The notes: generated by a model not told the origin, from the sequence alone. Positions 1,258 through 25,161 are shown, counted from the first letter of the stretch. The stretch is DNA of 64,000 nt from an uncultured Pseudomonadota bacterium (GCA_963847705.1 CAWKBC010000027.1:128001-192000), one strand, 5' to 3'. Made by a program: numbers and translations.

Positions 1258-1273
1258 AGCACGTGGCGTGCCG
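1258..1273 (-). promoter_or_regulatory. sigma54 -24/-12 promoter upstream of ppsA
   Basis: Minus-strand CGGCACGCCACGTGCT (GG-N10-GC). Confidence 0.7.
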
Positions 1274-1326
1274 GCCGCCGTTCGAGCTGCACTCTCGAAA
1301 CTCCGGCGACGACCTCACTGGGGCTG

Positions 1327-1369
1327 CGCAAAAAGTGCGGTCACCACCGAGGGGCCCGCAATCCTGACG
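1327..1369. promoter_or_regulatory. Paired palindromic operator (putative enhancer-binding protein site)
   Basis: CGCA-aaaag-TGCG at 1327 and CGCA-atcct-GACG at 1357, 30 bp apart. Confidence 0.6.
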
Positions 1370-1376
1370 CGGAGGC

Positions 1377-2423
1377 CTAGTGATAGCCCTCGGCGTCGCC
1401 CGCGCCGAGCTTTCCGCGAAAGGTCCGGTAGAGGTGCGTGAACGTGATGGCGACCAGCACGAAGGCGATCGGCCACCAGCCGAGAGCCACGCCCATGGCG
1501 TAAGACCCCGTCGCCGCTGAAGCGATGGTCAGCGAGCGTGCCGGATCGCCCGTCGACGGCAGGAGCACCGGGAAGAGGGCGAAGGCCGCACCCCCCAGCA
1601 TCGACGCCAGGTAGGTGACCGACGCGAGAAAGGCTGTCTGTTCGCGGTGGCGCCGCACGGCGACCGCCATGACCGCCAGGCTGGAAGCGACCGCCAGCGG
1701 AATCAGCAACCCGATCGGATGCGAGCGGAAGTTGCTCAGGATGGAGGGACGTACGGCGACGGTGGCACCCAGGCTCGCCAGCGTCAGGACGGGCAGGAGA
1801 TAGGTTCCAAGGCGGGCGATGCGTCGAGTGCGTTCGTTCAAGTCGCCGCCGACACGGAGGGCCAGATAGTGGGCACCGTGGGTCGCGAGCGCGACGAGAG
1901 CCACCACCCCGCAGGTCACGGTGTACCAGTCGAGAACCCCGGGCTGCTCTCCGGTGCGGAAGTTGGTCCAGAGCGGCAAGAAGAACGTCCCGTCGGCATC
2001 GAGCGGGACGCCGCGGATCACGTTGCCGAGCGCCGCGCCGAAGAAGACCGGAAGCAGCAGGCTCGAGACCATGAAGACCGTGTCGCAGGCTTCGGCGAAG
2101 AGCTCGTCGCCGAGATGGGACCGTAGCTCGAGGCCCAGCGCGCGTCCGATCAGCAGCCACAGCACCATCATGAGCGGCAGATAGAACCCGCTGAAGCTCA
2201 CGGCGTAGAGCGCAGGGAACGCGAAGTAGAGCGTGCCGCCCGCCGCCAGCAACCACACCTCGTTGGCGTCCCAAACCGGTCCGATGCTGCGGCGGACGAG
2301 GTTGCGCTCTTCGGGGGTCTTGGCGACCCATTTGTAGATGGCGCCCACTCCGAGATCGAATCCGTCGAGCACGACGTAGGCGACCAGCATCAGCGCGACC
2401 AGGAGGAACCAGAAGTTGGCCAT
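1377..2423 (-). CDS. cydB: Cytochrome bd ubiquinol oxidase subunit II
   Basis: VLDGFDLGVG and IGPVWDANEVWLL motifs; multi-pass membrane protein directly downstream of cydA. Confidence 0.95.
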   Translation of the reverse strand: MANFWFLLVALMLVAYVVLDGFDLGVGAIYKWVAKTPEERNLVRRSIGPVWDANEVWLLAAGGTLYFAFPALYAVSFSGFYLPLMMVLWLLIGRALGLELRSHLGDELFAEACDTVFMVSSLLLPVFFGAALGNVIRGVPLDADGTFFLPLWTNFRTGEQPGVLDWYTVTCGVVALVALATHGAHYLALRVGGDLNERTRRIARLGTYLLPVLTLASLGATVAVRPSILSNFRSHPIGLLIPLAVASSLAVMAVAVRRHREQTAFLASVTYLASMLGGAAFALFPVLLPSTGDPARSLTIASAATGSYAMGVALGWWPIAFVLVAITFTHLYRTFRGKLGAGDAEGYH

Positions 2424-2433
2424 GGTGAGGTCC

Positions 2434-3819
2434 TTATTCCGCCGCCGCGACGGTGGGCGATGTGACGAGCACCCCGAGGTGGGGGGCAGCTTCCGCTGGA
2501 ATGCCCTTGGCGATGGCCTTCGTCATGATGAGGACGAAAGCGATCGACAGGAGCGCGTAGAGACCCATGAAACCGAGCAAGGAGAAGAGCGCGTTGCCGG
2601 CGGAGACCCGTTGAGAGCTTCCGGCCGCCGTGCGCATGAGGCCGTAGACGAGCCACGGCTGGCGCCCCACCTCCGCTGTCATCCACCCGGCCGTGTTCGC
2701 GATGTAGGGCAGGGGAACCGCCAGCACCAGCGCCCAGAGAAGGGGGCGCGCCGTCTCCAGACGGCCGCGGACGAGCCAGAAGAGGGCCAGCGCCATGAGG
2801 GCCATGAAGATCGTCCCGAGGCCAACCATCACGTGGTAGCTGTAGTAGAGGAGGCCGACGTTGTCGGGGCGGGCTTCGGGTGGAAACTGATCTAGGCCAG
2901 CGACGGAGGCACTCCAGCGCCGATGGGTGAGGATGCTCAACGCAGCCGGAACCTCCAGCGTGTTGTCGATCCGTCGCTCATCGGTGTTCGGCTGCCCAAC
3001 GAGTACGAGCGGTGCCCCCGGACGGGTCGCGAAGAGCCCCTCCATCGCGGCCAGCGTGGCGGGTTGATTGGTGGCGATGAGCTGGCCCTGGCGGTCGCCG
3101 GTGGGAAATAGCTGCCAGAGGCTGGCTAGTGCAGCCACCACGACGCCGGTTCGGAGGAGCGCCGTCGAAGCCTGCCGGTCATCGCCCGTCTTGGCGCGAA
3201 GAACGTAGTAGGCGCCGAGACCGGAGGTGGCGAAGGCGCCGGTCACCAAGGCGCCGCCCATGGTGTGCAGGTACTGCCAGAAGGCCCAGCGGTTCAGCAG
3301 CAGCGCCGACAAGCTCTGGAGCTGGACGGCGCCGTCGGGACCTACGGTGTAGCCGACGGGGTGCTGCATCCAGGCGTCGGTGGCCACGATGAAGTAGCCC
3401 GACAGCCATGACCCCGCGAAAACGGCGAACGCCGACGCCAGGTGGGCGCGCGGCGAGAGGCGCTTTTCGCCGAACAGGAACAGGCCCAGAAACGACGATT
3501 CGAGGAAGAAGGCGAACATCCCCTCCATCGCCAGCGTCTGTCCGATGACGCCGCCGGCGAACTTCGAGAAGCGCGCCCAGTTGGTGCCGAACTGGAACTC
3601 CATCGGGATCCCGGTGACGACCCCGAAGACAAAGTTGATGGCGAAGAGGCGCGCGAGCAGACGCGCCGCCTCGGCGTACCGCCGTTCGGGGTGGCGGAGT
3701 GCCAGCATCTTGAGGATCACGATCATGGGCGCGAGGCCCATCGTGAGCTGCGGAAAGAGGTAGTGGAAGGTGGCCGTGAAGGCGAAGTGCAAACGATGTA
3801 CGACGAGAGCGCTGTCCAT
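2434..3819 (-). CDS. cydA: Cytochrome bd ubiquinol oxidase subunit I
   Basis: FHYLFPQLTMGL, GVVTGIPMEFQFGTNW, FFLESSFLG and GWMTAEVGRQPW motifs. Confidence 0.95.
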   Translation of the reverse strand: MDSALVVHRLHFAFTATFHYLFPQLTMGLAPMIVILKMLALRHPERRYAEAARLLARLFAINFVFGVVTGIPMEFQFGTNWARFSKFAGGVIGQTLAMEGMFAFFLESSFLGLFLFGEKRLSPRAHLASAFAVFAGSWLSGYFIVATDAWMQHPVGYTVGPDGAVQLQSLSALLLNRWAFWQYLHTMGGALVTGAFATSGLGAYYVLRAKTGDDRQASTALLRTGVVVAALASLWQLFPTGDRQGQLIATNQPATLAAMEGLFATRPGAPLVLVGQPNTDERRIDNTLEVPAALSILTHRRWSASVAGLDQFPPEARPDNVGLLYYSYHVMVGLGTIFMALMALALFWLVRGRLETARPLLWALVLAVPLPYIANTAGWMTAEVGRQPWLVYGLMRTAAGSSQRVSAGNALFSLLGFMGLYALLSIAFVLIMTKAIAKGIPAEAAPHLGVLVTSPTVAAAE

Positions 3820-3902
3820 GTCGGTCCTTTCGGACGCTCTCTTTGCAAGAGCCGGGCTAAGGACAGACCGGCTTACGAAAGGGGGACTCTCTCGCGCAAA
3901 CG

Positions 3903-3945
3903 CGCAAACTCTGCGGTCCGGTCACGGCCGGGCGTCAAAACTGCG
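3903..3945. promoter_or_regulatory. Paired palindromic operator upstream of cydA
   Basis: CGCA-aactc-TGCG at 3903 and CGTC-aaaac-TGCG at 3933, 30 bp apart. Only a degenerate sigma54-like site is present (TAGCCCGGCTCTTGCA, 3844-3859, minus). Confidence 0.55.
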
Positions 3946-3996
3946 TGCTCGGGGTTCGGGTGCTCCCACGACCAGTTCCGGCCGCCGGAACGATGG

Positions 3997-6516
3997 TCAA
4001 CGCTGCCAGGTGATGAGGGGCAATTCCGAGGGGATGCTGGCGATCTTCGATGCGGGAATGACCCGCGGGGTGCAGTCAGACACGGGTCTTCCGTTCGGGG
4101 TCATCGCGCGAAAGAGGAATCCATGGCTCGTGCCAGGCAGGGGCCCCGAGACGTCCATGGAAACACGGACAGGATCCAGGTTCGGCGCGAGCGGAGCGGC
4201 GAAGAGCTCTACCGCCACGTCGTCGAGCGCGACGTCGTTGAGAAAGACCTCGACGGAGATTTGCGCGCCGGTGTCGCGCGCCTGGACGTCCATCGCGCCG
4301 AACCGGATGCCCGCCCAGCAACTCGTCAGATGCCGGGTCCAGGATTCGAGCTCCCGGGCCGTTGCTCCGGCGTTCGCGAGCCGGGCACTGACTTCCACTT
4401 CCGCGGGATGGTAAAAACCAGTCACGTATTCGCGGAGCATTCGGTTCGCCGAAAATCGGGGGGTGAGCCGCGAGAGGCTGGCGCGAACGCGGCGCAGCCA
4501 GGCGCGTGGCAGGCCCTCGGCGTCGCGCTCGTAGAACGACGGAATGACTTCTTGCCGCAAGATGCGAAAGAGGGCGTCGGCGTCACGCTCGTCGTCACTG
4601 GCGGCATGCGGATCGCCGATCGCCCAACCCACCTCCGGCTCGTAGGCTTCTGCCCACCATCCGTCGAGCGCGGAGAGGTTGAGGCCGCCGTTGACCAGGA
4701 CCTTCATACCGCTGGTGCCGCAGGCCTCCCAAGGGCGCCTGGGTGTGTTGAGCCAAACGTCGACGCCCTGGACAAGCTCCTGCGCCAGGGACAGATCGTA
4801 GTCTTCTAAGAAGACGCAGCGCATACGGACCTCGGGCTTCGAGACGAAGCGCATCCAGGCTTCGATGAGCGCCTTGCCTTCATCGTCCGCAGGGTGTGCC
4901 TTGCCAGCGATCAAGATTTGAACTGGTCGCAGCTGATCTCCCAGGAGACGCTGCAGCTCCGGTTCGTTTCGCAAGAGGAGATTGGGTCGCTTGTACTCGG
5001 CAAAGCGGCGGGCGAACCCGACCGTGAGAACGTCGGGATCGAGAACCCGGGCGGCGACCTCGACATTCTCTGGCGGGGCACCTCGGCGAGCGAGCTGGTC
5101 CTTGAGGCGTCCCCGCGCCCGATGGATCAAATCCTCTCTGGCGCGGGCTCGTACGGCCCACAGCGTGCGATCGTCGACCGCAGCAATGGCCGCCTCGAGT
5201 CCCTCGGCTGCTCCGCGCCAGCGGTCCGCGCCGCAGGCATGGGTCCACAGCTCATCTGTCGCCGGTGAGTCCCACGACGGAACGTGAACTCCATTCGTAA
5301 CGTGCCGGATCGGGATCTCCTCCTTGGGCCAGCGGGGAAAGAACGACCGGAAAACCTCTCGGCTGGTCTCAGCGTGCAGCGCGCTCACCGCGTTGACGCG
5401 TGTCGCTCCATGCATCGCGAGGTAACTCGGTCGAAAGGGCTCTTCGGGTCCGGCTCCAGGCGCGCGCCCGAGCGCCAGCAGCTCCTCGAAGGTGATGCCG
5501 AGCTCGGCCAGGTAACCTCGGTCGGCCGGAAAATACTTTGCCACAATCTGAGATGCGAAGGCATCGAAGCCGGCCGCGACCGGCGTGTGCGTCGTGAAGA
5601 CGTTGCCGGCGCGGGTGGCGGCCAGCGCCCCTCTGAACGAGAGGTTGTGTCTCTTCATCGCCGAGCGTGCGCGCTCGAGGATTGCAAAGGCGGCGTGTCC
5701 TTCGTTGAGGTGCGCGGCGCCTGGCTCGATGCCCATCGCGTCGATGAGACGCCAGCCGCCGATCCCGAGCGCCATTTCCTGACGGAGGCGCATCTCAGGG
5801 CCGTCGCCGTAGAGCTTGCCGGTGATGCCGCGATCGACCGGATCGTTGACGGGGACATTGCCGTCGAGGAGATAGAGGGTCACGCGTCCGACGGTTGCTC
5901 GCCAAGCGCGCAACCAGAAAGTTCTGCCCGGCAATTCCACGGGGACCATCAGCCATTCGCCGGACGGAGCCAGCGCTGGTTGGATGGGGAGCGTGACCGG
6001 GTCGTTGTAGGGGTAGAGCTCCTCCTGGCGGCCGGCCGCATCGATAGCCTGGCGAAAGTAGCCTTCCTGGTAGAGCAGCCCGATTGCGACCAGCGGCACT
6101 CCGAGATCGCTGGCCGCCTTCAGGTGATCGCCGGCCAACACACCGAGACCCCCGGCATAAAGTGGAATCGCCTCTCCGAGACCGAACTCCAGGCTGAAGT
6201 ACGCCACTGGGCGCGCGAGATCGCCAATTCCCCCGTCGAGCGCCGGCGGCGAGGCCAGATACGCTTTTCGGACCGCCACAATTCGATCGAGGTCCTGCCG
6301 AAAGGTCGGATCGGCAGCGACGGCCTCGAGCCGTTCGCGCGGGAGATCCCGCAAAAGCAGCCAGGGATTGCCGGTCGCCTCCCAAGTGACGGAATCGAGC
6401 GCTCGCCAGAGGTGGTCGGCGTCGTGACTCCAGGTCCAGCGCAGATCGAGCGCCAATTCTGCGAGCGACTCCAGCCCTTCTGGCAGATCGGGAGGTGAGA
6501 ATGCGTCTTGGCTCAT
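3997..6516 (-). CDS. glgP: Alpha-glucan (glycogen/starch) phosphorylase
   Basis: YFSLEFG, YAGGLGVLAGDHLK, HLNEGHAAF, FARRFAEYKR and the PLP-lysine motif EACGTSGMK. Confidence 0.95.
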   Translation of the reverse strand: MSQDAFSPPDLPEGLESLAELALDLRWTWSHDADHLWRALDSVTWEATGNPWLLLRDLPRERLEAVAADPTFRQDLDRIVAVRKAYLASPPALDGGIGDLARPVAYFSLEFGLGEAIPLYAGGLGVLAGDHLKAASDLGVPLVAIGLLYQEGYFRQAIDAAGRQEELYPYNDPVTLPIQPALAPSGEWLMVPVELPGRTFWLRAWRATVGRVTLYLLDGNVPVNDPVDRGITGKLYGDGPEMRLRQEMALGIGGWRLIDAMGIEPGAAHLNEGHAAFAILERARSAMKRHNLSFRGALAATRAGNVFTTHTPVAAGFDAFASQIVAKYFPADRGYLAELGITFEELLALGRAPGAGPEEPFRPSYLAMHGATRVNAVSALHAETSREVFRSFFPRWPKEEIPIRHVTNGVHVPSWDSPATDELWTHACGADRWRGAAEGLEAAIAAVDDRTLWAVRARAREDLIHRARGRLKDQLARRGAPPENVEVAARVLDPDVLTVGFARRFAEYKRPNLLLRNEPELQRLLGDQLRPVQILIAGKAHPADDEGKALIEAWMRFVSKPEVRMRCVFLEDYDLSLAQELVQGVDVWLNTPRRPWEACGTSGMKVLVNGGLNLSALDGWWAEAYEPEVGWAIGDPHAASDDERDADALFRILRQEVIPSFYERDAEGLPRAWLRRVRASLSRLTPRFSANRMLREYVTGFYHPAEVEVSARLANAGATARELESWTRHLTSCWAGIRFGAMDVQARDTGAQISVEVFLNDVALDDVAVELFAAPLAPNLDPVRVSMDVSGPLPGTSHGFLFRAMTPNGRPVSDCTPRVIPASKIASIPSELPLITWQR

Positions 6517-7154
6517 CTCCGCGCGTCGGGGGAAGCTGTCCCGGCCTCAGTGTCGAGCTCGGAACGAAGAACCTCGACCTTCGCGATGATCTCCACCTCG
6601 TCACCGACGACCAGGCCGCCGACGTCGAGATCCTGATTCCAGTGCAGACCGAATGACTGGCGGTCAATCACGCCCCGAGCGGTGTAGAAGGTCCGCTCTC
6701 GGCCAGCGGAATCCTCCATCGTCTCGCCGACCTCCACCTCGGCGCGAATCTCGACGTCGTGGACGACGCCGTGCATGCTCAAGAGCCCCTCGACGACGAC
6801 CTGTCCGTCGGGGATGGCGACGTTCGTGCTCTTGAATTCCGCGCGTGGAAACCGTGCCACGTCCAGGAATTCGCTGGAACGGACGTGGGCATCGCGTTCG
6901 GGATCGTCCGTCGTGACGCTGGTCAGGTCGACCCAGACTTGCACACTCGACAGCCACGGCTGCCGGCGGTCGATGAAGAGAGTTCCCCCCCATCGTTCGA
7001 AGCGACCTCGGATCTGCTGGACGACGATGTGGCGGAGGTTGAAGGTCAGGCTCGACCGGGCGGGATCGATCTCCCACCGCTCCGACCGAGAATTATCGGC
7101 GCTCCCGTCGACACCCGCCGAAGCGCCACCGCGACGATCATTCATGGTGTTCAT
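6513..7154 (-). CDS. YceI family (polyisoprenoid-binding) protein
   Basis: WEIDPARSSLTFNLRH...RGRF...RDAHVRSSEFLDVARFP...IDRQSFGLHWN. Start chosen at the ATG 14 nt below the sigma54 site. Confidence 0.85.
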   Translation of the reverse strand: MNTMNDRRGGASAGVDGSADNSRSERWEIDPARSSLTFNLRHIVVQQIRGRFERWGGTLFIDRRQPWLSSVQVWVDLTSVTTDDPERDAHVRSSEFLDVARFPRAEFKSTNVAIPDGQVVVEGLLSMHGVVHDVEIRAEVEVGETMEDSAGRERTFYTARGVIDRQSFGLHWNQDLDVGGLVVGDEVEIIAKVEVLRSELDTEAGTASPDARR

Positions 7155-7166
7155 GGTCATCGGGGC

Positions 7167-7182
7167 TGCAGGATGAATGCCA
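7167..7182 (-). promoter_or_regulatory. sigma54 promoter upstream of yceI-glgP
   Basis: TGGCATTCATCCTGCA (GG-N10-GC); CGCA-aggaa-TGCG palindrome at 7214-7226. Confidence 0.65.
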
Positions 7183-7310
7183 GCAACAATTCGCGCCGGC
7201 ACGCTTTCGATCGCGCAAGGAATGCGGACCACCGCGTGACGGCGCAACCTTTTCGCGATCCGATGAGCAGAAGCCGTCCGCAGGTCCACCCTGCATGGTA
7301 GCGTGACGCC

Positions 7311-8480
7311 GTGTTCAGGACTTTTCGCGAAAACGTGAACGCTTACGTCGGCTTCGACGCCGCTGCCACCGAGTCCCTCCGCGAAGCGCATCCGTTGGTC
7401 GCGCCGCGTTTTGGCGCGATCATCGACGACTTCTACGCGACCATCGAAGCGCATCCCAACGCGCGCGCCGCCATCACCGGCGGGGCCGCTCAGATTGCCA
7501 GGCTCAAGCAGTCTCTCTTGCGCTGGATCGACGAGCTATTCAAGGGGCCGCACGACAACGCCTACTTCGACCGCCGCGCCCGCATCGGGCGGGTTCACGT
7601 TCAGATCAACCTTCCGCAGATGTACATGTTCACAGCGATGGATCGCATCCGCCTTCGATCGGCCGATGCGCTCCGAGAGGCGCCCGGGGTCGCCCCCGAG
7701 AAGCTGAACCGGATGCTGGCGGCCCTGCATCAGATCCTGGACATCGAGCTCGCGATCATGCTCGAGACGTACCGGGACGACCTTCTGACGAAGAACCGGA
7801 CCGCTGAGCGGTTGGCGACCATCGGACAGTTCGCCGCGGGCATCGGGCACGAGCTTCGCAATCCGCTCGGGGTCGTCGAGAGCTCGGCGTATCTCGTGAC
7901 TCAGCGTCTCGAGCAGCTCAGCGTGTCCGATCCCCGGGTGGCGCGCCACATGGAGAAGATCACGACGGAGGTCCAGAGGTCCGGTAGGACGATCAACGAC
8001 CTTCTGGAGCTCGCGCGGAACAAGCCGCCCAAGCGGCGTGTCGTCGATTGTCGTCAGTTCGTCTTGGATGCTGTCCCCGCTGCCCACCTCGATCCGGGCG
8101 TCGAGGTCATCGTCGAGGTTCCCGCCGGTCTGCCGCTCGATGCGGATCCCGATCAGCTCACCCGCGTCATCACGAACCTGTGCATCAACGCGAGTCAGGC
8201 GATGAACGCCAAAGGCCACATCTGGATCGACGCCTGGCGAGAAGGTGCGGCGACGGTTCTGCGTGTCCGCGACGAAGGACCAGGCGTTCCGTCGAACCTG
8301 CAGGTGCAGGTGTTCGAGGCGCTCTTCACCACGAAGGCGAAGGGGAGTGGGCTCGGCCTGGCGCTTTGCAGGCGCATCGCCGAGGCGCACGGTGGAACCG
8401 TCTCGCTGGAGCCGTCGGAGCAAGGAGCCGCGTTCCGAATCACCGTTCCGGACGCAACGCACGCGGGCGTCGAGAGATAG
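7311..8480 (+). CDS. Globin-coupled sensor histidine kinase (AfGcHK-like)
   Basis: N-terminal protoglobin-like domain (DDFYATI, RIGRVHVQINLPQMYMF with proximal His), H-box HELRNPL, N-box NLCINA, G-boxes DEGPG and GSGLGL. Confidence 0.9.
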   Translation: MFRTFRENVNAYVGFDAAATESLREAHPLVAPRFGAIIDDFYATIEAHPNARAAITGGAAQIARLKQSLLRWIDELFKGPHDNAYFDRRARIGRVHVQINLPQMYMFTAMDRIRLRSADALREAPGVAPEKLNRMLAALHQILDIELAIMLETYRDDLLTKNRTAERLATIGQFAAGIGHELRNPLGVVESSAYLVTQRLEQLSVSDPRVARHMEKITTEVQRSGRTINDLLELARNKPPKRRVVDCRQFVLDAVPAAHLDPGVEVIVEVPAGLPLDADPDQLTRVITNLCINASQAMNAKGHIWIDAWREGAATVLRVRDEGPGVPSNLQVQVFEALFTTKAKGSGLGLALCRRIAEAHGGTVSLEPSEQGAAFRITVPDATHAGVER

Positions 8481-8490: not shown

Positions 8491-9219
8491 CTACCAGACG
8501 GTCTCGAGAATCGCGAGCCCCAGTCCCGCCAGTAAGCCGAGAATGGCCCGTGATCGGGATTCGCTTCGACTGGCACTCCCTAGAAAGACGGTCGGCATCA
8601 GGTCGGCTAAGGCGATGTAAAGGAACGTTCCGGCCGCGATGCCGAGCGCGAGTCCCGAGACCTGCTTCCAGGCGGCCGCCGACAGGAGCGTCAGGGCCGC
8701 GCCGATGCCGGCGGTCAGTTGTACACCTGTCATCGCGACGAGCGCCTGTGTCCTGGTGAGAGCGGAGTTCCGCAGCAATACATAGTCGGCCAGCTCTTCC
8801 GGCACTTCGTGAGCGATGACGGCGATGGCGGTAATGACGCCGAGGCGTCCGGAGATCAAGAATGAAGCCGCGATCGCCGCGCCGTCCGCGGCGTTGTGAA
8901 AGGCATCTGCTCCGAGCAGCATAGCGGCGAGTCGACCACCCTTCAGGCTCTCTCGTCTGCGTCGTCCCAGTGCCCACTCGAGCGAGGCCATCACGGCTAG
9001 ACTTCCAATGACCGCGGCGACGACTGCAGCGTGGGACGCTCCGGCAAAGGCCTCCGGGAGAAGATCGAGAAACGTGGTTCCGACCAGTACGCCGGTGGCG
9101 AACCCGACCAGGGCCATCCGGCTCTGATCGAGCCGCCGCTCGGGCACCAGCGCGCCGGCCAGCCCGGCGCACCCGTCCGCCACGACGGCAGCGGTTACGT
9201 AGACGATGGTGCGGAACAT
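8491..9219 (-). CDS. ZIP family metal transporter
   Basis: Hydrophobic; FHNAADG and AHEVPEE ZIP signatures; GTFLYIA. Confidence 0.85.
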   Translation of the reverse strand: MFRTIVYVTAAVVADGCAGLAGALVPERRLDQSRMALVGFATGVLVGTTFLDLLPEAFAGASHAAVVAAVIGSLAVMASLEWALGRRRRESLKGGRLAAMLLGADAFHNAADGAAIAASFLISGRLGVITAIAVIAHEVPEELADYVLLRNSALTRTQALVAMTGVQLTAGIGAALTLLSAAAWKQVSGLALGIAAGTFLYIALADLMPTVFLGSASRSESRSRAILGLLAGLGLAILETVW

Positions 9220-17622: not shown

Positions 17623-17635
17623 GCCTTGGGGCTTG

Positions 17636-17651: not shown

Positions 17652-17684
17652 CGCATGCCCGCGGCGTGTCGCGGGGCCCGGGCG

Positions 17685-17727: not shown

Positions 17728-17793
17728 CGTGGGATCGATCGGGAGGGGGATCAGATCGCTGCCGCCGCCGAGCAGGTCACCGGGCGGCTGCCA

Positions 17794-17809
17794 TGGCACT
17801 CGATGTGCA
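17794..17809 (+). promoter_or_regulatory. sigma54 promoter for the usp-osmC-ppk2 operon
   Basis: TGGCACTCGATGTGCA. Confidence 0.75.
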
Positions 17810-18126: not shown

Positions 18127-19497
18127 ATGACGATCATTTGTGCCACCGACTTTTCGCCTTCTTCGGAGACGGCAACACGGCTGGGCATTGCGATGGCTCG
18201 GCGGAGAGGCGACACGCTCCTGCTCCTGCACGTGCTCGAGCCGCTCCCGGTGGATCCCGTCGGTGCGGGGATCCGCTTGGTGGACTGGGACGACGAGATG
18301 TTCACCACCGCCCAGGCCCAGCTCGAGAATCAGGCCAATGAGCTCCGCAAGAGCGGTCTCACGGTCGAAAGCCGCGTGGAGCAAGGGTATGCGGCGGCGG
18401 TCGTTCTCGATGCGGCACGCGCGACGAAGGCTTCTTTGATCGTCGTCGGATCGCATGGGCGAAAGGCCGTGGCTCGCCTGATTCTGGGAAGCTGTGCGGA
18501 GAGGATCGTGAGCTCGGCCCCCTGTCCGGTCTTGGTGGCAAGAGACAACTGCGCCGACGTGTCGCGGTGGGAGTCGACCGTGCCTCTTCGGCTGGCCGTG
18601 GTGACCGACGGATCGAGCGCGAGCAGCGCGGTGTTCTTCTGGGTTCGGACCGCGGCCCCGACCTCCCCGAGCGACGTCACACTGATCCGCTCTTACTGGC
18701 CGCCCCAGGAGGGTGCGCGCTACGGGATCGACGATCCCTGGCAGGGAAACGAAGGTCATCCCGAGTTGCTCAAACTGATCGAGCGAGATGTACGGCGCGA
18801 ATCAGCGGCGCTCGCTGGGCCACAGCTTCCGCCACTCCGGCTTCGTGTCGCGGTCCGCGACGCGGGTGAAGAGCTGGTCGCCGACGCAGCGGAGATGGGC
18901 GTCGACGCGCTGGTGATTGGAATCCCGAAGCATCGCCTCGGTCACTGGACACCGATCGCGCCGAAATCCGTCCTGAGGGCGGCGACGCGGCCGGTGTTCT
19001 GCGTTCCCGAAGGGATTGCGCCCTCCGTCCACCACATCCCGCGGTTCCGCTCGGTCCTGATCGCTTCGGATCTGTCCGACCTCGCCCACCAGGCGATCTT
19101 GCCGGCTTACGGCCTGCTGGCGGGCGGCGGCCAGGCGCATCTCTGTTTCGTCCAGGAGCAGGAGCAACCGGTGGCCGGAGGGGCGGTCTCTATGAAGCGG
19201 TCGCTGACGGCCGAGGAGCGGGGGACAATCGAAGCCAAGCTTCGGTCGCAGGTCCCAACCGAGGCCGCCGACCACGGAATCGGGACGTACGTCACCGTGT
19301 TGGAAGGGCAGTCGGTCGCGGGCGAGATCCTGCAAGCGGCCGAAAGGTTGGACGTCGACGCCATCGCCTTGGCTTCGCACGGTCGAACGGGCATTGGACG
19401 GGTTTTGCTCGGCTCGGTCGCCGAGGAGGTGGCTCGCAAGTCTTCGCGGCCTTTGCTCATCATCCACGCGAAGACGGGCGATGCACGTGCTGAGTGA
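18127..19497 (+). CDS. Universal stress protein (three USP domains)
   Basis: IICATDFS, VVGSHGRKAVARLILGSCAE, ASDLS, ASHGRTGIGRVLLGSVAE. Confidence 0.9.
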   Translation: MTIICATDFSPSSETATRLGIAMARRRGDTLLLLHVLEPLPVDPVGAGIRLVDWDDEMFTTAQAQLENQANELRKSGLTVESRVEQGYAAAVVLDAARATKASLIVVGSHGRKAVARLILGSCAERIVSSAPCPVLVARDNCADVSRWESTVPLRLAVVTDGSSASSAVFFWVRTAAPTSPSDVTLIRSYWPPQEGARYGIDDPWQGNEGHPELLKLIERDVRRESAALAGPQLPPLRLRVAVRDAGEELVADAAEMGVDALVIGIPKHRLGHWTPIAPKSVLRAATRPVFCVPEGIAPSVHHIPRFRSVLIASDLSDLAHQAILPAYGLLAGGGQAHLCFVQEQEQPVAGGAVSMKRSLTAEERGTIEAKLRSQVPTEAADHGIGTYVTVLEGQSVAGEILQAAERLDVDAIALASHGRTGIGRVLLGSVAEEVARKSSRPLLIIHAKTGDARAE

Positions 19498-19518
19498 GGC
19501 GGGGTCGCCGAGGCGGTC

Positions 19519-19950
19519 ATGAAAGCGGTCGTCGAATCCGCAGGGAGGGTCGCCAGTCGGGTTCGGCTCGGCCGTCATGACCTTCTGTTCGACCAACCGG
19601 CACCCGTGCCCGGTGGAGAAGACCGAGGTCCGTCGCCTCTCGATGTTCTCGCCGCCTCGGTGGCGGCCTGCGCGCACTACTATGCAGCCGCATATCTGCA
19701 AACGCGGGGGTTGCCCACCGAGAGGCTGGTCGTCGAGGTGGAGTCTGAAAAGGACCGCGCGCCCGCGCCCCGTATTGGTCGCCTTTCGATGAAGGTTCGC
19801 CTCCCGCAGGGCCTCTCCGAGCGCCAGCTCGCCGGTGTCGAGCGAGCCATAAAGAGCTGTCCCGCGTACGGGACGCTGCTCCACCCCCCGACGGTGGAGC
19901 TGACGATCGAGACGGGTGGTGGCGTCGCTGGAGCGGAGCTGTCACCCTGA
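19519..19950 (+). CDS. OsmC/Ohr-like (YhfA-type) protein
   Basis: DQPAPVPGGEDRGPSPLDVLAASVAAC...SCPAYGTL, with two conserved Cys. Confidence 0.85.
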   Translation: MKAVVESAGRVASRVRLGRHDLLFDQPAPVPGGEDRGPSPLDVLAASVAACAHYYAAAYLQTRGLPTERLVVEVESEKDRAPAPRIGRLSMKVRLPQGLSERQLAGVERAIKSCPAYGTLLHPPTVELTIETGGGVAGAELSP

Positions 19951-19992
19951 AGCCATGACGACGACCGCCGGCGGATACGCCTCGAGGAGGCT

Positions 19993-20868
19993 GTGAAAGG
20001 GACGACCGGACGTTTCCGAGTCCCCGAAGGGGCTTCCGTCAGGCTTCACCGGTGGGCGACGTCGGTCAAGCCGCTCTACCGGTCCAAGGACGAATACCAC
20101 GATCTCCTGTCGGGCCAGGTCGAGGAGCTGAGCAAGCTTCAGCGACTGCTCTATGCTTCCAATCAGTACGCGCTCCTGCTGATCTTTCAGGCCATGGACG
20201 CCGCCGGCAAGGACGGCGCCATCGCGCACGTCATGTCGGGTGTCAACCCGCAGGGCTGTCAGGTGTTCAGCTTCAAGCACCCGAGCGCCGAGGAGACCGA
20301 GCACGATTTCCTCTGGCGAACCACGCGAGCCCTCCCGGAGCGCGGACGGATCGGGATCTTCAACCGGTCCTATTACGAGGAGGTCTTGATCGCGCGTGTG
20401 CACCCCGAGATCCTTCGGGCCGAAGGCCTGCCCCCGCACGAATTGGAGGAGGGCCACATCTGGCGGGGCCGGTATGAGTCCATCTTGGGGCTCGAACGGC
20501 ACCTCCATCGCAGCGGGACCCGGATCGTCAAATTCTTCCTGCACCTCTCGAAGGAGGAACAGCGGAAGCGGTTCTTGAAGCGCATCGACGATCCGGAGAG
20601 GCGGTGGAAGTTTAGCCAAGCTGACATCGAGGAACGAAAGTACTGGCGGCGGTACATGAAAGCGTACGAGGCGTGCCTCGGTGCCACCAGCACCGCCGGC
20701 TCGCCTTGGTACGTGGTCCCCGCAGACGACAAGAAAAACGCCCGCCTCATCGTCTCTCGGATCACTGTCGAGACGCTGGCCGCACTGAAGATGCAGTATC
20801 CGACGCTGTCAGGAGCCCGGCTGCGCGAGCTCCGGTCGATCCGGCGGCAGTTGACGAAGTCGTCCTAG
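19993..20868 (+). CDS. ppk2: Polyphosphate kinase 2 family protein
   Basis: Walker [39 protein letters not shown]. Confidence 0.92.
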
Positions 20869-20972
20869 CCGGTCCTCCCGGGCGCCGCGCAAATCCGTCG
20901 CCCCAAGCGCTGCAGCGTCGCTCCCTACGCAGAAAATGCGCGGTTTGCCGGAACCGCGGGTGGATTCCCGGC

Positions 20973-20988
20973 TGGAACGCCGGTTGCA
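20973..20988 (+). promoter_or_regulatory. sigma54 promoter
   Basis: TGGAACGCCGGTTGCA; CGCA-gaaaa-TGCG palindrome at 20928-20940. Confidence 0.75.
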
Positions 20989-21005: not shown

Positions 21006-22382
21006 ATGAAAATCGTATGTGCCACGGACTTCACGCCGCGCGGGCAGGCCGCGGCTCAGGTCGCCGTCGATCTCGCGCGTCGGACCAAAGGATGGGTCGA
21101 GCTGGTCCACGTGATGAAACCCGGCACTGTCGACATTCTGGCTCTAGCCGCCGACGCCCTGGTCCTCGAAGCGGAGGTGCGGTCCAGCGTCGAGGCTCGA
21201 CTGGCCAGGGAGTGCGACCGTCTCTCCACCGCGGACATTCCCGTCACTTTTCACATCTGCGAGGGCGACGTAGAGATCTCCGTGCTTCGCCGCGCCGAAG
21301 AGATCGCGGCGGACCTCGTCGTTGCCGGAACCCACGGGCGATCGGCCTTGCGCCGGTTCGTCATCGGCAGTGTGGGCGAGGAGCTGGCGCGCAGCTCCGC
21401 TCGGCCGATCTTGATCGTCCCTCCCGGCGTGGAGGGGCTCGGCTCGGGGCACGGCCCATCAAGGACATTGTCCGTCACCGTGGCGGTCGACGGGCGAACG
21501 ACGAGCAGCGGCGCCCTCAGCTTCGTGCGAACCCTCCGAGCTCACGTCCCCTGTGATGTGACCTTTCTGCGGCTCTATTGGGCCATGGAGGAGTTCGAGC
21601 GGCTCGGCCTCAACGGGCTGCGCGAGCTGTTCGAGCCCGACGCCGAGGTGGTGGCCAATCTCCTGCGGGCGCTGCACCTCGAGGTCGGGGTTCTTCCGGG
21701 CGCGGGCGGAACGTCGTTCATCGTCAGGCCCGCTTGGGGCGAGCCGTCGGTTCAGATCCTCGACTTCGCGCGCGGTCGGTCCGATGACCTGCTGATCGTG
21801 GGAGCCGAAAGCAGGCGCGGTCTGGGTCGAATCAGTCACCCGGCCGTCGCGGAGCAGATCGCGCACGAGGCGTCGCGGGTCCCGGTGGTGTTCGCTCGGA
21901 GTGGCGAACAGAAGAGCCTCGAAACGGTGACTCCGACAATCTTCACCGTTCTCGCCCCCACCGACCTCTCGCCGGTGGGGAACCGCGCGGTCCCCTACGC
22001 GTACGCCATGCTCCCCTCGCACGGCGGGGTCGTCGAGCTCTGTCACGTGCACGAGCGCGCCCTGGCCTCACCTGCCTATGCCTACGAGCGGACGGAGGGA
22101 AAGCTGACCGAGGATGAACGGACGCGGATCGAGGGCCAGCTGCGCGCCCTCATCCCGAGCGACGCCCAGGAGCGAGGCATCACCACCCACGTCACGGTCA
22201 TCGACGGGGGACGCGCCGGCGACGCCATCGTTCAAGCGTCCGAGCGGCTGGTCGTGGACGCCGTCGTCCTGGCTTCGCATGGCCAGAGCGGGGCGCTGAA
22301 ATCGCTGCTCGGCTCGGTCTCGCACGCCGTCATGGAACGGAGCCGCCGGCCGGTCCTGATCATTCCGAGCCTTCGCTCATGA
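21006..22382 (+). CDS. Universal stress protein (three USP domains)
   Basis: MKIVCATDFT, AGTHGRSALRRFVIGSVGE, APTDLS, ASHGQSG..LLGSVS. Confidence 0.9.
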   Translation: MKIVCATDFTPRGQAAAQVAVDLARRTKGWVELVHVMKPGTVDILALAADALVLEAEVRSSVEARLARECDRLSTADIPVTFHICEGDVEISVLRRAEEIAADLVVAGTHGRSALRRFVIGSVGEELARSSARPILIVPPGVEGLGSGHGPSRTLSVTVAVDGRTTSSGALSFVRTLRAHVPCDVTFLRLYWAMEEFERLGLNGLRELFEPDAEVVANLLRALHLEVGVLPGAGGTSFIVRPAWGEPSVQILDFARGRSDDLLIVGAESRRGLGRISHPAVAEQIAHEASRVPVVFARSGEQKSLETVTPTIFTVLAPTDLSPVGNRAVPYAYAMLPSHGGVVELCHVHERALASPAYAYERTEGKLTEDERTRIEGQLRALIPSDAQERGITTHVTVIDGGRAGDAIVQASERLVVDAVVLASHGQSGALKSLLGSVSHAVMERSRRPVLIIPSLRS

Positions 22383-22792
22383 GGCCGCGATCTCCAGACC
22401 GCGAAGATTCCTCAGCGGTGAGCACACTCCTCAAGGAGACCACTGACAATCTCGGAGCGCTCGTCGCCGATCACCTCAAGCTCGCCCGGATCGAGCTCGA
22501 GACAGATGTCCGCATCTATGCCGGCGCGCTGGGGATCTCGCTTGCCGCTGGCGTTCTTCTGCTCGTCGGCTACCTCTTCGCCTGGGCGGCGGTGGCGGTC
22601 GGCCTGGCCAAGCTCTGGGGCGCGCCCGCCGGCTTCGCGGTGGTGGCGGGGGCTCACCTGCTCGTTGGCGGCGTCAGCCTGGCTGCCGTCTCGCGAAAGC
22701 TGCAGAGAACCAAGGTCCTCCGGGAATCGATCGTCGAAGTCCGCCGGAGCGTTCGCGCGCTGGCGCATCCGTTGAAAGGACAGGCGTCGTGA
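22379..22792 (+). CDS. YqjE/holin-X-like two-TM membrane protein
   Basis: LVADHLKLARIEL followed by two hydrophobic helices; overlaps the usp stop. Confidence 0.7.
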   Translation: MRPRSPDREDSSAVSTLLKETTDNLGALVADHLKLARIELETDVRIYAGALGISLAAGVLLLVGYLFAWAAVAVGLAKLWGAPAGFAVVAGAHLLVGGVSLAAVSRKLQRTKVLRESIVEVRRSVRALAHPLKGQAS

Positions 22793-23010
22793 CAGAGCGC
22801 CCGGTATCGGAGGCCGCATTGTCGGAGCGACTGGCCCGCGCCGAGGCGGACGTCGAGCAGGCGCGGGAGCGCGTCTCCTCGTCGGTGCTGGCCTTGCGGG
22901 ACGAGCTCGCGCGGCAATCTGACTGGCGGCGCTGGCTGCTGCGCCATCCCCTGGCGAGCTTGGGGGGCGCCCTGGCCGTCGGATTTGTGCTGGGGCGCCG
23001 ACGCCCGTAG
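22789..23010 (+). CDS. Small C-tail-anchored protein (DUF3618/YqjK-like)
   Basis: Coiled N-terminus, then DWRRWLLRHPLASLGGALAVGFVLGRR. Confidence 0.65.
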   Translation: MTERPVSEAALSERLARAEADVEQARERVSSSVLALRDELARQSDWRRWLLRHPLASLGGALAVGFVLGRRRP

Positions 23011-23036
23011 GGGCCCGGAAGCTGCGGAGGAGATCG

Positions 23037-23234
23037 ATGAAGACCACCGACCAGATCGAAGCCGGCAGTTGTGACGCGGGAGCGAGGGTGCGACCCGAGG
23101 CGCAGGAGGCAAAACGGCGCCTGTCGTCCTGGAACGAGACGCTGACCGACTATATCAAAGAGAACCCGGGGCGTTGCCTGCTGGGCGCGCTCGCACTCGG
23201 GTTCGTGGTCGGCAAGATCGCCAGGCGGGTGTGA
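23037..23234 (+). CDS. ElaB/YqjD (DUF883)-like small protein
   Basis: YIKENPGRCLLGALALGFVVGKIARR; GGAGGAG RBS. Confidence 0.7.
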   Translation: MKTTDQIEAGSCDAGARVRPEAQEAKRRLSSWNETLTDYIKENPGRCLLGALALGFVVGKIARRV

Positions 23235-23248
23235 GGGAGGTGAGGACT

Positions 23249-23518
23249 ATGGACGCATCGGAACCAACCTCGGTCGGAAGTCCACTTGCCGATCTCAGGA
23301 GACAGGTGAGCCGGCACCCGTACGGGACCGTCGCTGCGGCGCTGGGAATCGGTTACGCGCTCGGGGGCGGGATCTTCACGCCGCTGACGTCGCGTGTGGT
23401 GCGGCTCGGGCTGCGGATCGGCATCCGGACCGCGCTGCTTCCGATCCTGAAAGCAGAGTTGTCCGAGGCGGTTGAAACATTCATCGGCAGCAGGAACCAA
23501 GCGGGAGAAGCGTCATGA
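23249..23518 (+). CDS. Small membrane protein
   Basis: RHPYGTVAAALGIGYALGGG; GGAGGTGAGGA RBS. Confidence 0.65.
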   Translation: MDASEPTSVGSPLADLRRQVSRHPYGTVAAALGIGYALGGGIFTPLTSRVVRLGLRIGIRTALLPILKAELSEAVETFIGSRNQAGEAS

Positions 23519-23793
23519 ATCTCAAGGACGTTCGGAATCTCGACAAGGACGAGATCCTCAGCCTTCTGGGGTTGGAGAAGAAGCCCTCTCCCGGTGTGGG
23601 ACTGGCAGCGGCGTTGGGAACCTTCGGGGTCGGCTTGCTCGTGGGTGCCGGCATCGCCCTCATTCTGGCGCCAAAACCGGGACACGAGCTGCGCCAAGAG
23701 ATCCGGGACCGGCTACGGCGTGGCCCCAACGAGGTCAAGGAAGAGACGACGACGACGGGCGGCGCAAAGGCCGCGAACGACCCACAGGCGTGA
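23515..23793 (+). CDS. YtxH-like protein
   Basis: FGVGLLVGAGIALILAPKPGHELR. Confidence 0.75.
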   Translation: MNLKDVRNLDKDEILSLLGLEKKPSPGVGLAAALGTFGVGLLVGAGIALILAPKPGHELRQEIRDRLRRGPNEVKEETTTTGGAKAANDPQA

Positions 23794-23856
23794 GGTCGGT
23801 GGTTCCGCCGAGATCACAGATTCACAAATCACAACGCACTTGAAGGAGAACCAGCC

Positions 23857-24927
23857 ATGGCGACGACGATGCGAGCGGCCGTATTTCAGGGGAAGGGAAA
23901 GATTGCACTGCGCGAGGTCCCGCGCCCGGTTCCGGGCGTCGGACAGGCGCTCATCAAGGTGACGCTGACGACGATCTGCGGAACCGACGTCCACATCTTG
24001 AAAGGTGAGTATCCAGTCAAGGAAGGACTCATCGTCGGTCACGAGCCTGTCGGCGTGATCGAAGAGCTCGGACCCGGCGTGACCGGGTATCAAAAAGGGG
24101 ACCGGGTCATCGTCGGCGCCATCACCCCCTGTGGCCAGTGCCGCGCCTGCCTGTCGGGCAGCCTGTCGCAGTGCGGCCACGGCGGAGACCGCTACGAGGC
24201 GATCGGCGGCTGGCGGTTCGGGAACACCATCGACGGCTGCCAGGCCGAGTACGTGCTGGTTCATGACGCCCAGGCCAACCTGGCCAAGATCCCCGCCGGC
24301 CTCTCGGACGAGGAGGTCCTGCTCTGCCCGGACATCATGTCGACGGGCTTTTCGGCCGCCGAGCATGGCCACGTACGGCTGGGCGACGCAGTCGCGGTGT
24401 TCGCGCAGGGGCCGATTGGGCTCTGCGCGACCGCGGGCGCACGTCTGGCTGGCGCCTCGCTGGTGATCGGAATCGACAGTGAGCCCAAGCGTATGGAGAT
24501 GTCTCGGCGGATGGGGGCCGACGTCGTTCTCAACTTCAAGGAGCAAGACGTGGTCGCTGAGATCAAGCGACTCACGGGCGGGGGCGTCGATGTGGCGATC
24601 GAGGCGCTCGGGACCTCGGGCACCTTCGAAAACGCCCTGCGCTGTGTGCGTCCGGGCGGCACCGTGTCCAGCCTCGGCGTCTACTCCGGTCACCTCACGT
24701 TGCCGCTCGACGCCTTCGCGGCCGGCCTCGGGGACCACACCATCGTGAGCTCCCTCTGTCCGGGGGGAAAGGAGCGGATGCGGCGGCTCATGAGCATCGT
24801 GGCGGCCAAACGGTTCCCGTTTCAGGAGTTGGTCACCCATCCGTTCCGCCTGGCCGATATCGAAGCCGCCTACGACCTCTTCTCGCATCAGCGTGACGGG
24901 GTCATGAAGGTCGCCATCCGGCCGTAG
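23857..24927 (+). CDS. Zinc-dependent alcohol dehydrogenase (MDR family)
   Basis: ICGTDVH, GHEPVG, CGQCRAC...C structural zinc site, CPDIMSTG, AQGPIG. Confidence 0.92.
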   Translation: MATTMRAAVFQGKGKIALREVPRPVPGVGQALIKVTLTTICGTDVHILKGEYPVKEGLIVGHEPVGVIEELGPGVTGYQKGDRVIVGAITPCGQCRACLSGSLSQCGHGGDRYEAIGGWRFGNTIDGCQAEYVLVHDAQANLAKIPAGLSDEEVLLCPDIMSTGFSAAEHGHVRLGDAVAVFAQGPIGLCATAGARLAGASLVIGIDSEPKRMEMSRRMGADVVLNFKEQDVVAEIKRLTGGGVDVAIEALGTSGTFENALRCVRPGGTVSSLGVYSGHLTLPLDAFAAGLGDHTIVSSLCPGGKERMRRLMSIVAAKRFPFQELVTHPFRLADIEAAYDLFSHQRDGVMKVAIRP

Positions 24928-24961
24928 CGCGAATCTCCGAACAAAACCACTGTCCGACCAG

Positions 24962-25000
24962 CGAGGCGACCGTCGACGAAGCATGTCGACGGTCGCCTCG
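24962..25000. terminator. 16-bp perfect inverted repeat after adh
   Basis: CGAGGCGACCGTCGAC-7 nt-GTCGACGGTCGCCTCG; no U-tract. Confidence 0.55.
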
Positions 25001-25049
25001 TCGCGTCTGGCGATCGAGCGGCGCCGTCACCCGAGGAAGAGGTCGTCGG

Positions 25050-25092
25050 CGCACGGGTTGCGTCGGTCAACTGGCGAAACGCAGATTTTGCG
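25050..25092. promoter_or_regulatory. Paired palindromic operator
   Basis: CGCA-cgggt-TGCG at 25050 and CGCA-gattt-TGCG at 25080, 30 bp apart. Confidence 0.7.
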
Positions 25093-25145
25093 TGGCGTTC
25101 CGAGTCAGCGCCGAGAAAACACGCAGTCACATCGATGAAGTGCCT

Positions 25146-25161
25146 TGGCGCCGCCATTGCA
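25146..25161 (+). promoter_or_regulatory. sigma54 promoter for yceI-porin
   Basis: TGGCGCCGCCATTGCA. Confidence 0.7.

What the first reader, a model, noticed from the sequence alone, without database searches (positions are those of the whole stretch)
1258..25161. A sigma54 regulon marked by CGCA-N5-TGCG palindromes paired at 30 bp
Seen: eleven GG-N10-GC sigma54-type promoters (1258, 7167, 9818, 9850, 11398, 14309, 14452, 17095, 17636, 17794, 20973, plus 25146 as a twelfth). Nearly every such intergenic region also carries the palindrome CGCA-N5-TGCG. Six regions have two copies exactly 30 bp apart (1327/1357, 3903/3933, 11447/11477, 14366/14396, 17685/17715, 25050/25080), and near-variants occur at 7214/7243, 9329/9360 and 20888/20928. 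Known: sigma54 needs an enhancer-binding protein (bEBP), which typically binds tandem palindromes about three helical turns apart. Inference: a single bEBP controls this whole low-oxygen cluster, making it a DosR-like dormancy regulon built on sigma54. No receiver-type bEBP gene lies inside the cluster in this window.
Basis: partly seen in the sequence, partly recalled or inferred. Interest (0 to 1): 0.8.

Follow-up and report, generated by a model that had tools for sequence, protein, structure and literature searches.

The report
NmpR low-oxygen regulon island in Polyangia
Paired DNA boxes identical to the published binding site of the myxobacterial regulator NmpR sit at fixed helical distances in front of 22 sigma54-type promoters in one 70-kb gene island that also encodes an NmpR relative and its heme kinases, so this is likely a known oxygen-sensing switch controlling an unusually large, clustered low-oxygen survival kit.

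Summary
Observation confirmed. The six 30-bp pairs are real (6 seen, 0.06 expected, 0 of 100 shuffles), and all 12 GG-N10-GC sites exist. The motif is the published NmpR box of Myxococcus xanthus (GCGCA-N5-TGCGC, 14-15 nt gap). It groups with a Myxococcus-type NmpR (100/99) and shares its recognition helix. The island spans about 70 kb, holds 18 box pairs, and accounts for 22 of the genome's 23 box-plus-promoter units. Not found in the papers I read: boxes sit in helical phase 39-83 bp from the -24 element, six pairs serve divergent promoters, about a third of promoters likely give leaderless mRNAs, NmpS carries an extra PAS domain, and a second globin kinase is likely sigma70-driven. Corrections: only 9 of the 12 promoters have an adjacent pair, and it is not a DosR system. 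Low-oxygen induction is inferred from M. xanthus; dormancy is untested. Verdict: new variant of a known system.

The parts
1..1228 (-). 5' part of PEP synthase (ppsA). First gene of a likely operon that continues left of the window into the protoglobin kinase (NmpU-like, C27:125602-126783) and the REC-PAS kinase (NmpS-like, C27:124208-125605)
   Evidence: NCBIfam TIGR01418 above cut-off; gene order; co-transcription inferred
1259..1272 (-). sigma54-type promoter, 61 bp from the proximal box; leadered with a Shine-Dalgarno site
1326..1370 (.). NmpR box pair, 30 bp
1377..3819 (-). cytochrome bd oxidase cydA (2434-3819) and cydB (1377-2423)
   Evidence: Pfam PF01654, PF02322
3845..3858 (-). candidate non-canonical sigma54 promoter of cydAB (AG-N10-GC, 51 bp from the box); the -12 half is conserved without GG in two relatives
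   Evidence: function inferred
3902..3946 (.). NmpR box pair, 30 bp
3997..7154 (-). YceI-domain gene (6513-7154) and alpha-glucan phosphorylase (3997-6516)
7168..7181 (-). sigma54-type promoter, 39 bp from the box; ATG 13 nt after the GC
7213..7256 (.). NmpR box pair, 29 bp
7296..7304 (+). extended -10-like element 6 nt before the start of the second globin kinase; same element in three relatives
   Evidence: sigma70 use inferred
7311..8480 (+). second protoglobin histidine kinase (NmpU paralogue)
   Evidence: Pfam PF11563, HisKA, HATPase_c
8491..9219 (-). ZIP-family transporter
   Evidence: Pfam PF02535
9328..9373 (.). NmpR box pair, 31 bp, with no canonical sigma54 site in phase
9367..10378 (.). 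divergent CBS (9367-9804, -) and hemerythrin (9893-10378, +) genes with back-to-back sigma54-type sites (9819-9832 -, 9851-9864 +) that lack an adjacent box pair
10714..11490 (-). YceI gene (10714-11385), promoter 11399-11412 (41 bp from the box, ATG gap 13), exact box pair 11446-11490
12258..14466 (.). three-domain USP (12992-14296, -) and CBS gene (12258-12995, -); box pair 14365-14409 shared by promoters 14310-14323 (-, 49 bp) and 14453-14466 (+, 51 bp)
14904..15266 (+). single receiver-domain protein
   Evidence: Pfam PF00072
15430..17109 (-). BON protein (16384-17082), hypothetical and CBS gene (15430-15837); sigma54-type site 17096-17109 without an adjacent pair
17116..17808 (.). cytochrome c'-like gene (17116-17622, -; weak Pfam hit below cut-off); box pair 17684-17728 shared by promoters 17637-17650 (-, 41 bp) and 17795-17808 (+, 74 bp)
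18127..20868 (+). three-domain USP, OsmC-like protein, PPK2 (ADP-polyphosphate phosphotransferase)
20887..20987 (+). box pair with 40-bp spacing (20887-20941) and promoter 20974-20987 (40 bp)
21006..24927 (+). three-domain USP, small holin-X/YtxH-type genes, zinc alcohol dehydrogenase
25049..25160 (+). exact box pair (25049-25093) and promoter 25147-25160 (61 bp; ATG gap 14)
25175..28629 (+). YceI, porin, SulP/STAS fragment and USP; right end of the island

Best explanation
The paired palindromes match the published NmpR box and are likely the enhancers of an NmpR orthologue encoded just left of the window, which would switch on a 70-kb island of sigma54 promoters when oxygen runs low. Shown: box pairs, promoter motifs, their geometry, and genes for NmpR-, NmpS-, NmpT- and two NmpU-like proteins in the island. 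Inferred from M. xanthus: with oxygen bound, the globin kinase NmpU phosphorylates the receiver of NmpS (and NmpT) and keeps NmpS off. Without oxygen NmpS phosphorylates NmpR, whose dimers on the two boxes oligomerise and open sigma54 promoters on the same helical face 39-83 bp away. The loop is likely autoregulated, since both usp-nmpR-usp and ppsA-nmpU-nmpS have a pair plus promoter. The output is predicted to be high-affinity respiration (cytochrome bd), ATP and redox upkeep (PEP synthase, PPK2, glucan phosphorylase, acyl-CoA ligase, alcohol and D-hydroxyacid dehydrogenases, N-type ATPase) and stress proteins (7 USP, 5 CBS, BON, YceI, hemerythrin genes). About a third of the transcripts are likely leaderless.
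For: Motif and spacing equal the published NmpR site (PMC11841059). 22 of 50 sigma54-like sites in C27:84-160 kb have a pair 30-100 bp upstream, against 1 of 1536 in the rest of the genome. Box-to-GG distances fall at 39-41, 47-52, 61-62, 71-74 and 82-83 bp: R=0.78 at 10.5 bp, 0 of 100000 in four nulls. The phase repeats in relatives (41 and 116 distances, 0 of 20000 each). A Myxococcus-type nmp locus found with a published nmpR primer (L104/L105) has its best G000 hits for R, U, S and T all inside the island (R 474 vs 384 bits for the next). R is 56% identical with the same recognition helix, and the clade has 100/99 support. The globin's best PDB hit is AfGcHK (5OHE, E 1e-44), with His96 as in NmpU. 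Pairs occur 118 times in 66 loci around this bEBP group, 2 times in 14 outgroup loci, and 0 times in 9 loci where a globin kinase sits mostly beside another bEBP type. 13 of 19 Usp and 10 of 23 CBS domain matches of the genome are in the island.
Against: No binding, expression or oxygen data exist for this organism. The M. xanthus NmpR sequence itself was not obtained; L104/L105 are a close relative used as proxy. The box matrix was trained on island sites, so island counts are partly circular (one search is the held-out test). Three of 12 window promoters lack a pair, and two pairs lack a canonical promoter. NmpS has an extra PAS domain (465 vs 373 aa), so inputs other than oxygen are possible. 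The NmpT match is weak (30% identity, 74 bits). Relatives are not independent, and L005 is the same contig as G308. The assembly is 84.7% complete with 6% contamination, so 'almost no sites elsewhere' covers assembled DNA only.
Confidence: 0.82

Rival explanations
1. NmpR drives the island, but the main trigger is not low oxygen: energy, redox, NO or CO signals enter through the PAS domain of NmpS or the second globin kinase.
For: PAS insertion in NmpS. A second globin kinase with its own likely sigma70 promoter. Much of the cargo (USP, CBS, OsmC, YceI) is general stress gear. The M. xanthus paper calls oxygen sensing strongly suggested, not directly shown.
Against: Cytochrome bd and hemerythrins are in the island. 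Both globins keep the proximal His and align closely with AfGcHK or each other. The M. xanthus target is induced 6.5-fold in hypoxia.
Confidence: 0.12
2. Another of the genome's roughly 40 bEBPs binds these boxes, and the NmpR-like gene is only a passenger.
For: 44 strong Sigma54_activat matches among 51 hits; no binding test was possible.
Against: The helix query scores 67 bits on C27:122325 against 41 for the next. Pairs track this clade across genomes. The box equals the tested NmpR site.
Confidence: 0.04
3. The pattern is a by-product of high G+C and CGCA/TGCG-rich DNA.
For: The single palindrome is as common genome-wide as other spacer lengths. A crude whole-genome pair count in 25 genomes often did not exceed its control.
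Against: Shuffles, the held-out matrix, phase with an independent promoter motif and conservation of geometry while flanks diverge.
Confidence: 0.01

Closest known systems
NmpRSTU system and NmpR regulon of Myxococcus xanthus (PMC6211767, PMC11841059)
   Same: Same box (GCGCA-N5-TGCGC), same 14-15 nt gap, sigma54 promoters, same four components, autoregulation of the nmpR and nmpU operons, and CBS, USP, hemerythrin and high-affinity oxidase targets.
   Different: There 7 promoters and 23 genes at scattered loci; here 22 paired promoters in one island of about 79 ORFs. Cytochrome bd here instead of cbb3 (ccoN not found in the 84.7% complete assembly). Extra PAS in NmpS, two globin kinases, nmpT 9 kb from nmpSU, and no second strong unit elsewhere such as a pilR site. 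Helical phasing and leaderless starts are not described in the text I read.
AfGcHK globin-coupled kinase of Anaeromyxobacter sp. Fw109-5 (PDB 5OHE)
   Same: Best solved-structure match of the NmpU-like globin domain (E 1e-44); proximal His kept.
   Different: Its regulon is stated to be unknown; heme binding was not tested here.
lxa low-oxygen-activated locus of Burkholderia cenocepacia (PMC3721108)
   Same: One cluster of 50 genes in about 51 kb, six USPs, nitroreductase, sulfate transporter and P-type ATPase, with one motif at 17 intergenic points.
   Different: The lxa motif is Fnr/Anr-type TGA-N6-TCA. Here the motif is an NmpR pair with sigma54, and no Crp/Fnr gene is in the island.
DosR dormancy regulon of Mycobacterium tuberculosis (as summarised in PMC3721108; regulator families recalled)
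   Same: USP-rich hypoxia cargo; two heme sensor kinases (recalled for DosS/DosT).
   Different: DosR is a LuxR/NarL-type regulator with GAF-heme kinases (recalled). Here there is a sigma54 bEBP with globin kinases, and no GerE-domain gene in the island.

Membership tests
NmpRSTU / NmpR regulon | Tandem GCGCA-N5-TGCGC boxes 14-15 nt apart | tested here: met
   Seven of the nine window pairs are at 29-30 bp start to start, one at 31, one at 40; published rule
NmpRSTU / NmpR regulon | Sigma54 site downstream of the boxes, oriented to the gene; rpoN present | tested here: met
   16 of 18 island pairs have a canonical site within 100 bp; rpoN at C30:405415
NmpRSTU / NmpR regulon | NmpR orthologue (REC-AAA+-HTH_8) | tested here: met
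   Best hit, 56% identity, shared helix and 100/99 clade with the Myxococcus-type proxy L104/L105; the M. xanthus protein itself was not obtained
NmpRSTU / NmpR regulon | NmpU protoglobin kinase with proximal His96 | tested here: met
   Pfam, 5OHE alignment, 48% identity to the proxy NmpU
NmpRSTU / NmpR regulon | NmpS hybrid REC-HisKA-CA kinase | tested here: met
   Best hit in G000, 42-45% identity in both parts, with an added PAS domain
NmpRSTU / NmpR regulon | NmpT with two receiver domains | tested here: met
   C27:114644-115390, two REC domains, best hit of the proxy NmpT but only 30% identical
NmpRSTU / NmpR regulon | NmpR binding, phosphorelay and hypoxic induction | not testable with these tools
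   Needs bench work or RNA data
DosR regulon | LuxR/NarL-type regulator DosR (recalled) | tested here: not met
   None of the 11 GerE matches lies in C27:84-157 kb
DosR regulon | GAF-heme kinases DosS/DosT (recalled) | tested here: not met
   The island's kinases carry protoglobin, REC-PAS or PAS inputs; no GAF among the Pfam hits shown
DosR regulon | Needed for survival of anoxia or dormancy | not testable with these tools
   Uncultured organism; no phenotype data
Burkholderia lxa locus | Fnr/Anr-type regulator with TGA-N6-TCA motif | tested here: not met
   None of the 4 HTH_Crp_2 matches is on contig C27; I did not scan the island for the Fnr motif itself
Burkholderia lxa locus | One USP-rich cluster under one intergenic motif | tested here: met
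   7 USP genes and 18 box pairs in about 70 kb

The most novel reading that the evidence does not exclude
Polyangia have built an lxa/DosR-type anoxia-survival island on sigma54. One NmpR hexamer reads a rigid promoter code: two boxes three turns apart, set 40 + 10.5n bp from the -24 element, often firing both ways. It makes largely leaderless mRNAs that stay translatable under energy stress. Clustering lets conserved 'orphan' sigma54 promoters (the sigma32-like gene, BON, CBS/hemerythrin) borrow distant enhancers, and a sigma70-driven second globin kinase acts as the standing sensor, as DosT does. This would be a third, independent wiring of the same hypoxia kit.
Probability: 0.3. Interest if true: 0.7.

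Novelty: new variant of a known kind. Interest (0 to 1): 0.45.

Why it matters
The regulator, motif and spacing are published, so the core is not new. The finding extends the NmpR regulon from 7 scattered promoters in one laboratory species to a dense island in uncultured Polyangia. It gives a predictive promoter code that can map the regulon across Myxococcota, including Anaeromyxobacter, where the targets of the well-studied oxygen sensor AfGcHK are stated to be unknown. The phased short-range enhancers and likely leaderless sigma54 transcripts can be tested directly in M. xanthus. If hypoxic induction holds, these myxobacteria carry a survival kit like Burkholderia lxa and mycobacterial DosR under a third type of regulator.

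Tried and rejected
(2) Reaching M. xanthus NmpR directly failed: not among the 80 loci, not recognisable among the 120 unnamed hits, not in the 20 loci, and the order of G001 held one genome. (3) No RNA holder listed for window 1200-9000; no reads were laid. (4) No match to a recalled E. coli IHF consensus in the island; six HU/IHF-family genes exist, so this is not evidence against looping aids. (5) Single boxes at 30475 (inside a glycoside hydrolase reading frame) and 38311 have no partner or phased promoter and were left out. (6) Degenerate boxes within 250 bp of six orphan promoters: best score 6.5 bits, none forming a pair. (7) Leaderless starts as a regulon-specific trait: rejected, since 10 of 104 strong unpaired sigma54-like sites and many extended -10 sites elsewhere show the same. 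(8) One 191-bp distance (a second promoter behind the same pair) was dropped before the phase test; with it R was 0.72. (9) The one-clade test did not run; three picked loci (L007, L012, L089) and two short G000 stretches were filtered out of the tree. (10) Three look-ups of earlier findings returned nothing. No structure or complex prediction was run.
Full report
OBSERVATION. The window is G000:C27:128001-192000. The closest named NmpR-like relatives (83-88% identity) come from records labelled Polyangia, so the host is inferred to be a Polyangia-class member of Myxococcota. All 12 GG-N10-GC sites are present. The palindrome occurs 11 times against 3.47 expected, and the 30-bp pair 6 times against 0.06; 0 of 100 shuffles reach either count. 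Only two pairs are exact in both copies. The single palindrome is unremarkable genome-wide (248 copies versus 78-227 for other spacers). A matrix trained on 14 sites outside the window recovered 8 pairs at 29-31 bp in window 1-27000 and at most 1 at any other distance from 18 to 45.

WHAT IT IS. The motif is published. M. xanthus NmpR binds GCGCA-N5-TGCGC in tandem with a preferred gap of 14-15 nt, which is 29-30 bp start to start. It needs the sigma54 site and the proximal box, and its target mxan_4236 rises 6.5-fold in hypoxia (PMC11841059). Left of the window lie a REC-AAA+-HTH_8 gene (C27:122325-123776), a REC-PAS-HisKA kinase (124208-125605), a protoglobin kinase (125602-126783) and a two-receiver gene (114644-115390). 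A second protoglobin kinase is at window 7311-8480, and rpoN is at C30:405415.

ORTHOLOGY. A published nmpR primer matched two metagenome contigs exactly. L105 has the M. xanthus gene order (CBS ... nmpR ... nmpS, nmpT, nmpU) and box pairs at 29 bp. The proxy NmpR has D54, V87, K104 and P105, and the proxy NmpU has H96, as in the papers. Its N-terminus differs from the one implied by the M. xanthus cloning primer, so it is a relative, not M. xanthus. The best G000 hits of its R, U, S and T are the four island genes (R 474 bits, next 384; helix region 67 versus 41). R is 56% identical over 461 residues with the same recognition helix. In a 59-row tree (38 G000 bEBPs, 2 proxies, 19 homologues) the 13 proteins with this helix form one branch at 100/99, with only C27:122325 from G000. 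The globin's best PDB match is AfGcHK.

EXTENT. The unit is an island of about C27:84-157 kb with roughly 79 ORFs by a codon heuristic and G+C of 65.9% against 69.1% for the genome; the low-G+C stretch runs on to about 190 kb. It holds 18 box pairs, 9 of them in the window. Of 50 sigma54-like sites in it, 22 have a pair 30-100 bp upstream; elsewhere 1 of 1536 does (box matrix trained on island sites, promoter score from a recalled consensus). Six pairs serve two divergent promoters. Cargo: cytochrome bd, PEP synthase, glucan phosphorylases, PPK2, zinc alcohol dehydrogenase, D-hydroxyacid dehydrogenase, acyl-CoA ligase, an N-type ATPase operon with AtpR, Mg P-type ATPase, nitroreductase, hemerythrins, YceI, BON, 7 USP and 5 CBS genes, and a sigma32-like factor.

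GEOMETRY. Distances from the proximal box centre to the -24 GG are 39-41 (8), 47-52 (6), 61-62 (3), 71-74 (3) and 82-83 (2). R is 0.78 at a 10.5-bp period, reached by 0 of 100000 draws in each of four nulls; for the 14 distances over 45 bp alone, 73 of 100000. One 191-bp case was left out. Four same-genus genomes give 32 pairs (23 at 30 bp) and 41 distances with the same phase; 66 loci around this bEBP group give 118 pairs and 116 distances (0 of 20000 each). Fourteen outgroup loci give 2 pairs. Nine loci from other classes, where a globin kinase sits mostly beside a different bEBP, give none. A globin kinase lies within 10 kb in 44 of the 66 loci and 0 of the 14. G308 has 13 pairs in 55 kb and none in 80 kb of flanks; G302 has 9 in 40 kb. 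Gene order is shuffled. The orthologue was found in 9 of 15 same-genus genomes. These genomes are kin, and L005 duplicates G308.

LEADERLESS STARTS. An ATG opening a coding frame lies 13-14 nt after the -12 GC in 8 of 22 paired promoters here, 16 of 40 in the genus and 27 of 81 in 61 other loci, and never at 8-12 nt. The background is 27 of 1530 unpaired sites. Orthologues keep the 13-14 nt gap while the letters diverge. With the usual start about 12 nt after the GC (recalled), the leader would be 1-3 nt, inside the 5-nt definition quoted in PMC12754779. This is a lineage habit rather than a regulon trait: 10 of 104 strong sites elsewhere show it, and extended -10 motifs peak 6-7 nt before starts genome-wide. 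The second globin kinase has such an element here and in three relatives, and no sigma54 site in its direction here.

MECHANISM. Shown: the parts and their geometry. Taken from M. xanthus (PMC6211767): oxygen-bound NmpU keeps NmpS off; in low oxygen NmpS phosphorylates NmpR. Inferred here: NmpR-P on the pairs activates the phased promoters, including usp-nmpR-usp (C27:121841) and ppsA-nmpU-nmpS (window 1259-1272), giving feedback. Unexplained: promoters 9818, 9850, 17095, C27:119372 and C27:91034/91066 have no adjacent pair. The hemerythrin and BON orthologues have their own pairs in L007 and L124, which fits relics of shuffling. The sigma32-like gene's orphan promoter is conserved in two relatives, which fits distant activation or another bEBP. 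cydAB has a pair and a conserved -12 half without GG.

COMPARISON AND NOVELTY. It is a member of the NmpRSTU family on every feature testable here. It works like lxa and DosR in cargo but is a member of neither: no Crp/Fnr or LuxR gene is in the island. A search for NmpRSTU lists three papers; Polyangia plus NmpR lists one, where the word is in a reference title. Searches for leaderless sigma54 transcripts and for helical spacing in Myxococcus showed no report of these features in the listings or passages seen; subscription journals are not covered.

PAPERS SEEN. PMC11841059: parts 1-7 of 10 (all main text) and Tables S1-S2, not the figures. Its Figs 5 and 7 might already show promoter distances. 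PMC6211767: passages, sections 8 and 10, part 1 of the Discussion and primer rows of supplement 2. Its S2 Fig on conservation was not visible and may include Polyangia. PMC3721108, PMC12754779, PMC4842269, PMC3616915 and PMC12753109: passages only. DosR family details and the sigma54 and IHF consensus motifs are recalled.

VERDICT. Real, well supported and mostly explained by a known system. The island scale, the phase rule, the leaderless starts and the second sensor are the new parts. New variant of a known kind; interest 0.45.

Noticed in passing
G000:C27:105182-111656 (L002/L003): Complete N-type ATPase operon with AtpR behind a box pair. No other close F1 beta copy was found in the assembly (one hit at 35%), which is only 84.7% complete.
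   Followed up: partly
G000:C27:119400-120113 (L003:9400-10113): Sigma32-like factor (best NCBIfam hits RpoH, below cut-off) with a conserved sigma54-type promoter lacking an adjacent pair; a possible sigma54-to-sigma70-family cascade.
   Followed up: partly
window 7296-8480: Second globin kinase with a conserved extended -10 element and likely leaderless start. In L117 and L124 a box ends about 5 nt before that element, so NmpR might repress it.
   Followed up: partly
whole genome G000: Leaderless-type spacing looks common for both sigma70 (peak 6-7 nt) and sigma54 (13-14 nt) promoters.
   Followed up: partly
L088-L090, L091, L092, L094, L097, L099, L100: In other Myxococcota classes the globin kinase sits beside a different bEBP clade and no NmpR pairs are nearby; a separate regulon with its own motif probably exists.
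   Followed up: no
window 3845-3858: The cydAB promoter keeps the -12 half but lacks the GG in three genomes.
   Followed up: partly
G000:C27:81988-84491, 111722-114629; window 27143-28058: Glucan phosphorylase, acyl-CoA ligase and SulP appear in pieces; assembly errors or pseudogenes, not checked against reads.
   Followed up: no
window 22379-23793: Run of small genes (holin-X-like, YtxH-like and short hypothetical proteins) between the USP and alcohol dehydrogenase genes.
   Followed up: no
window 59478-60824: FHA-domain sigma54 activator, unrelated to the NmpR clade.
   Followed up: no
window 30475 and 38311: Lone exact palindromes without a partner; probably chance.
   Followed up: partly
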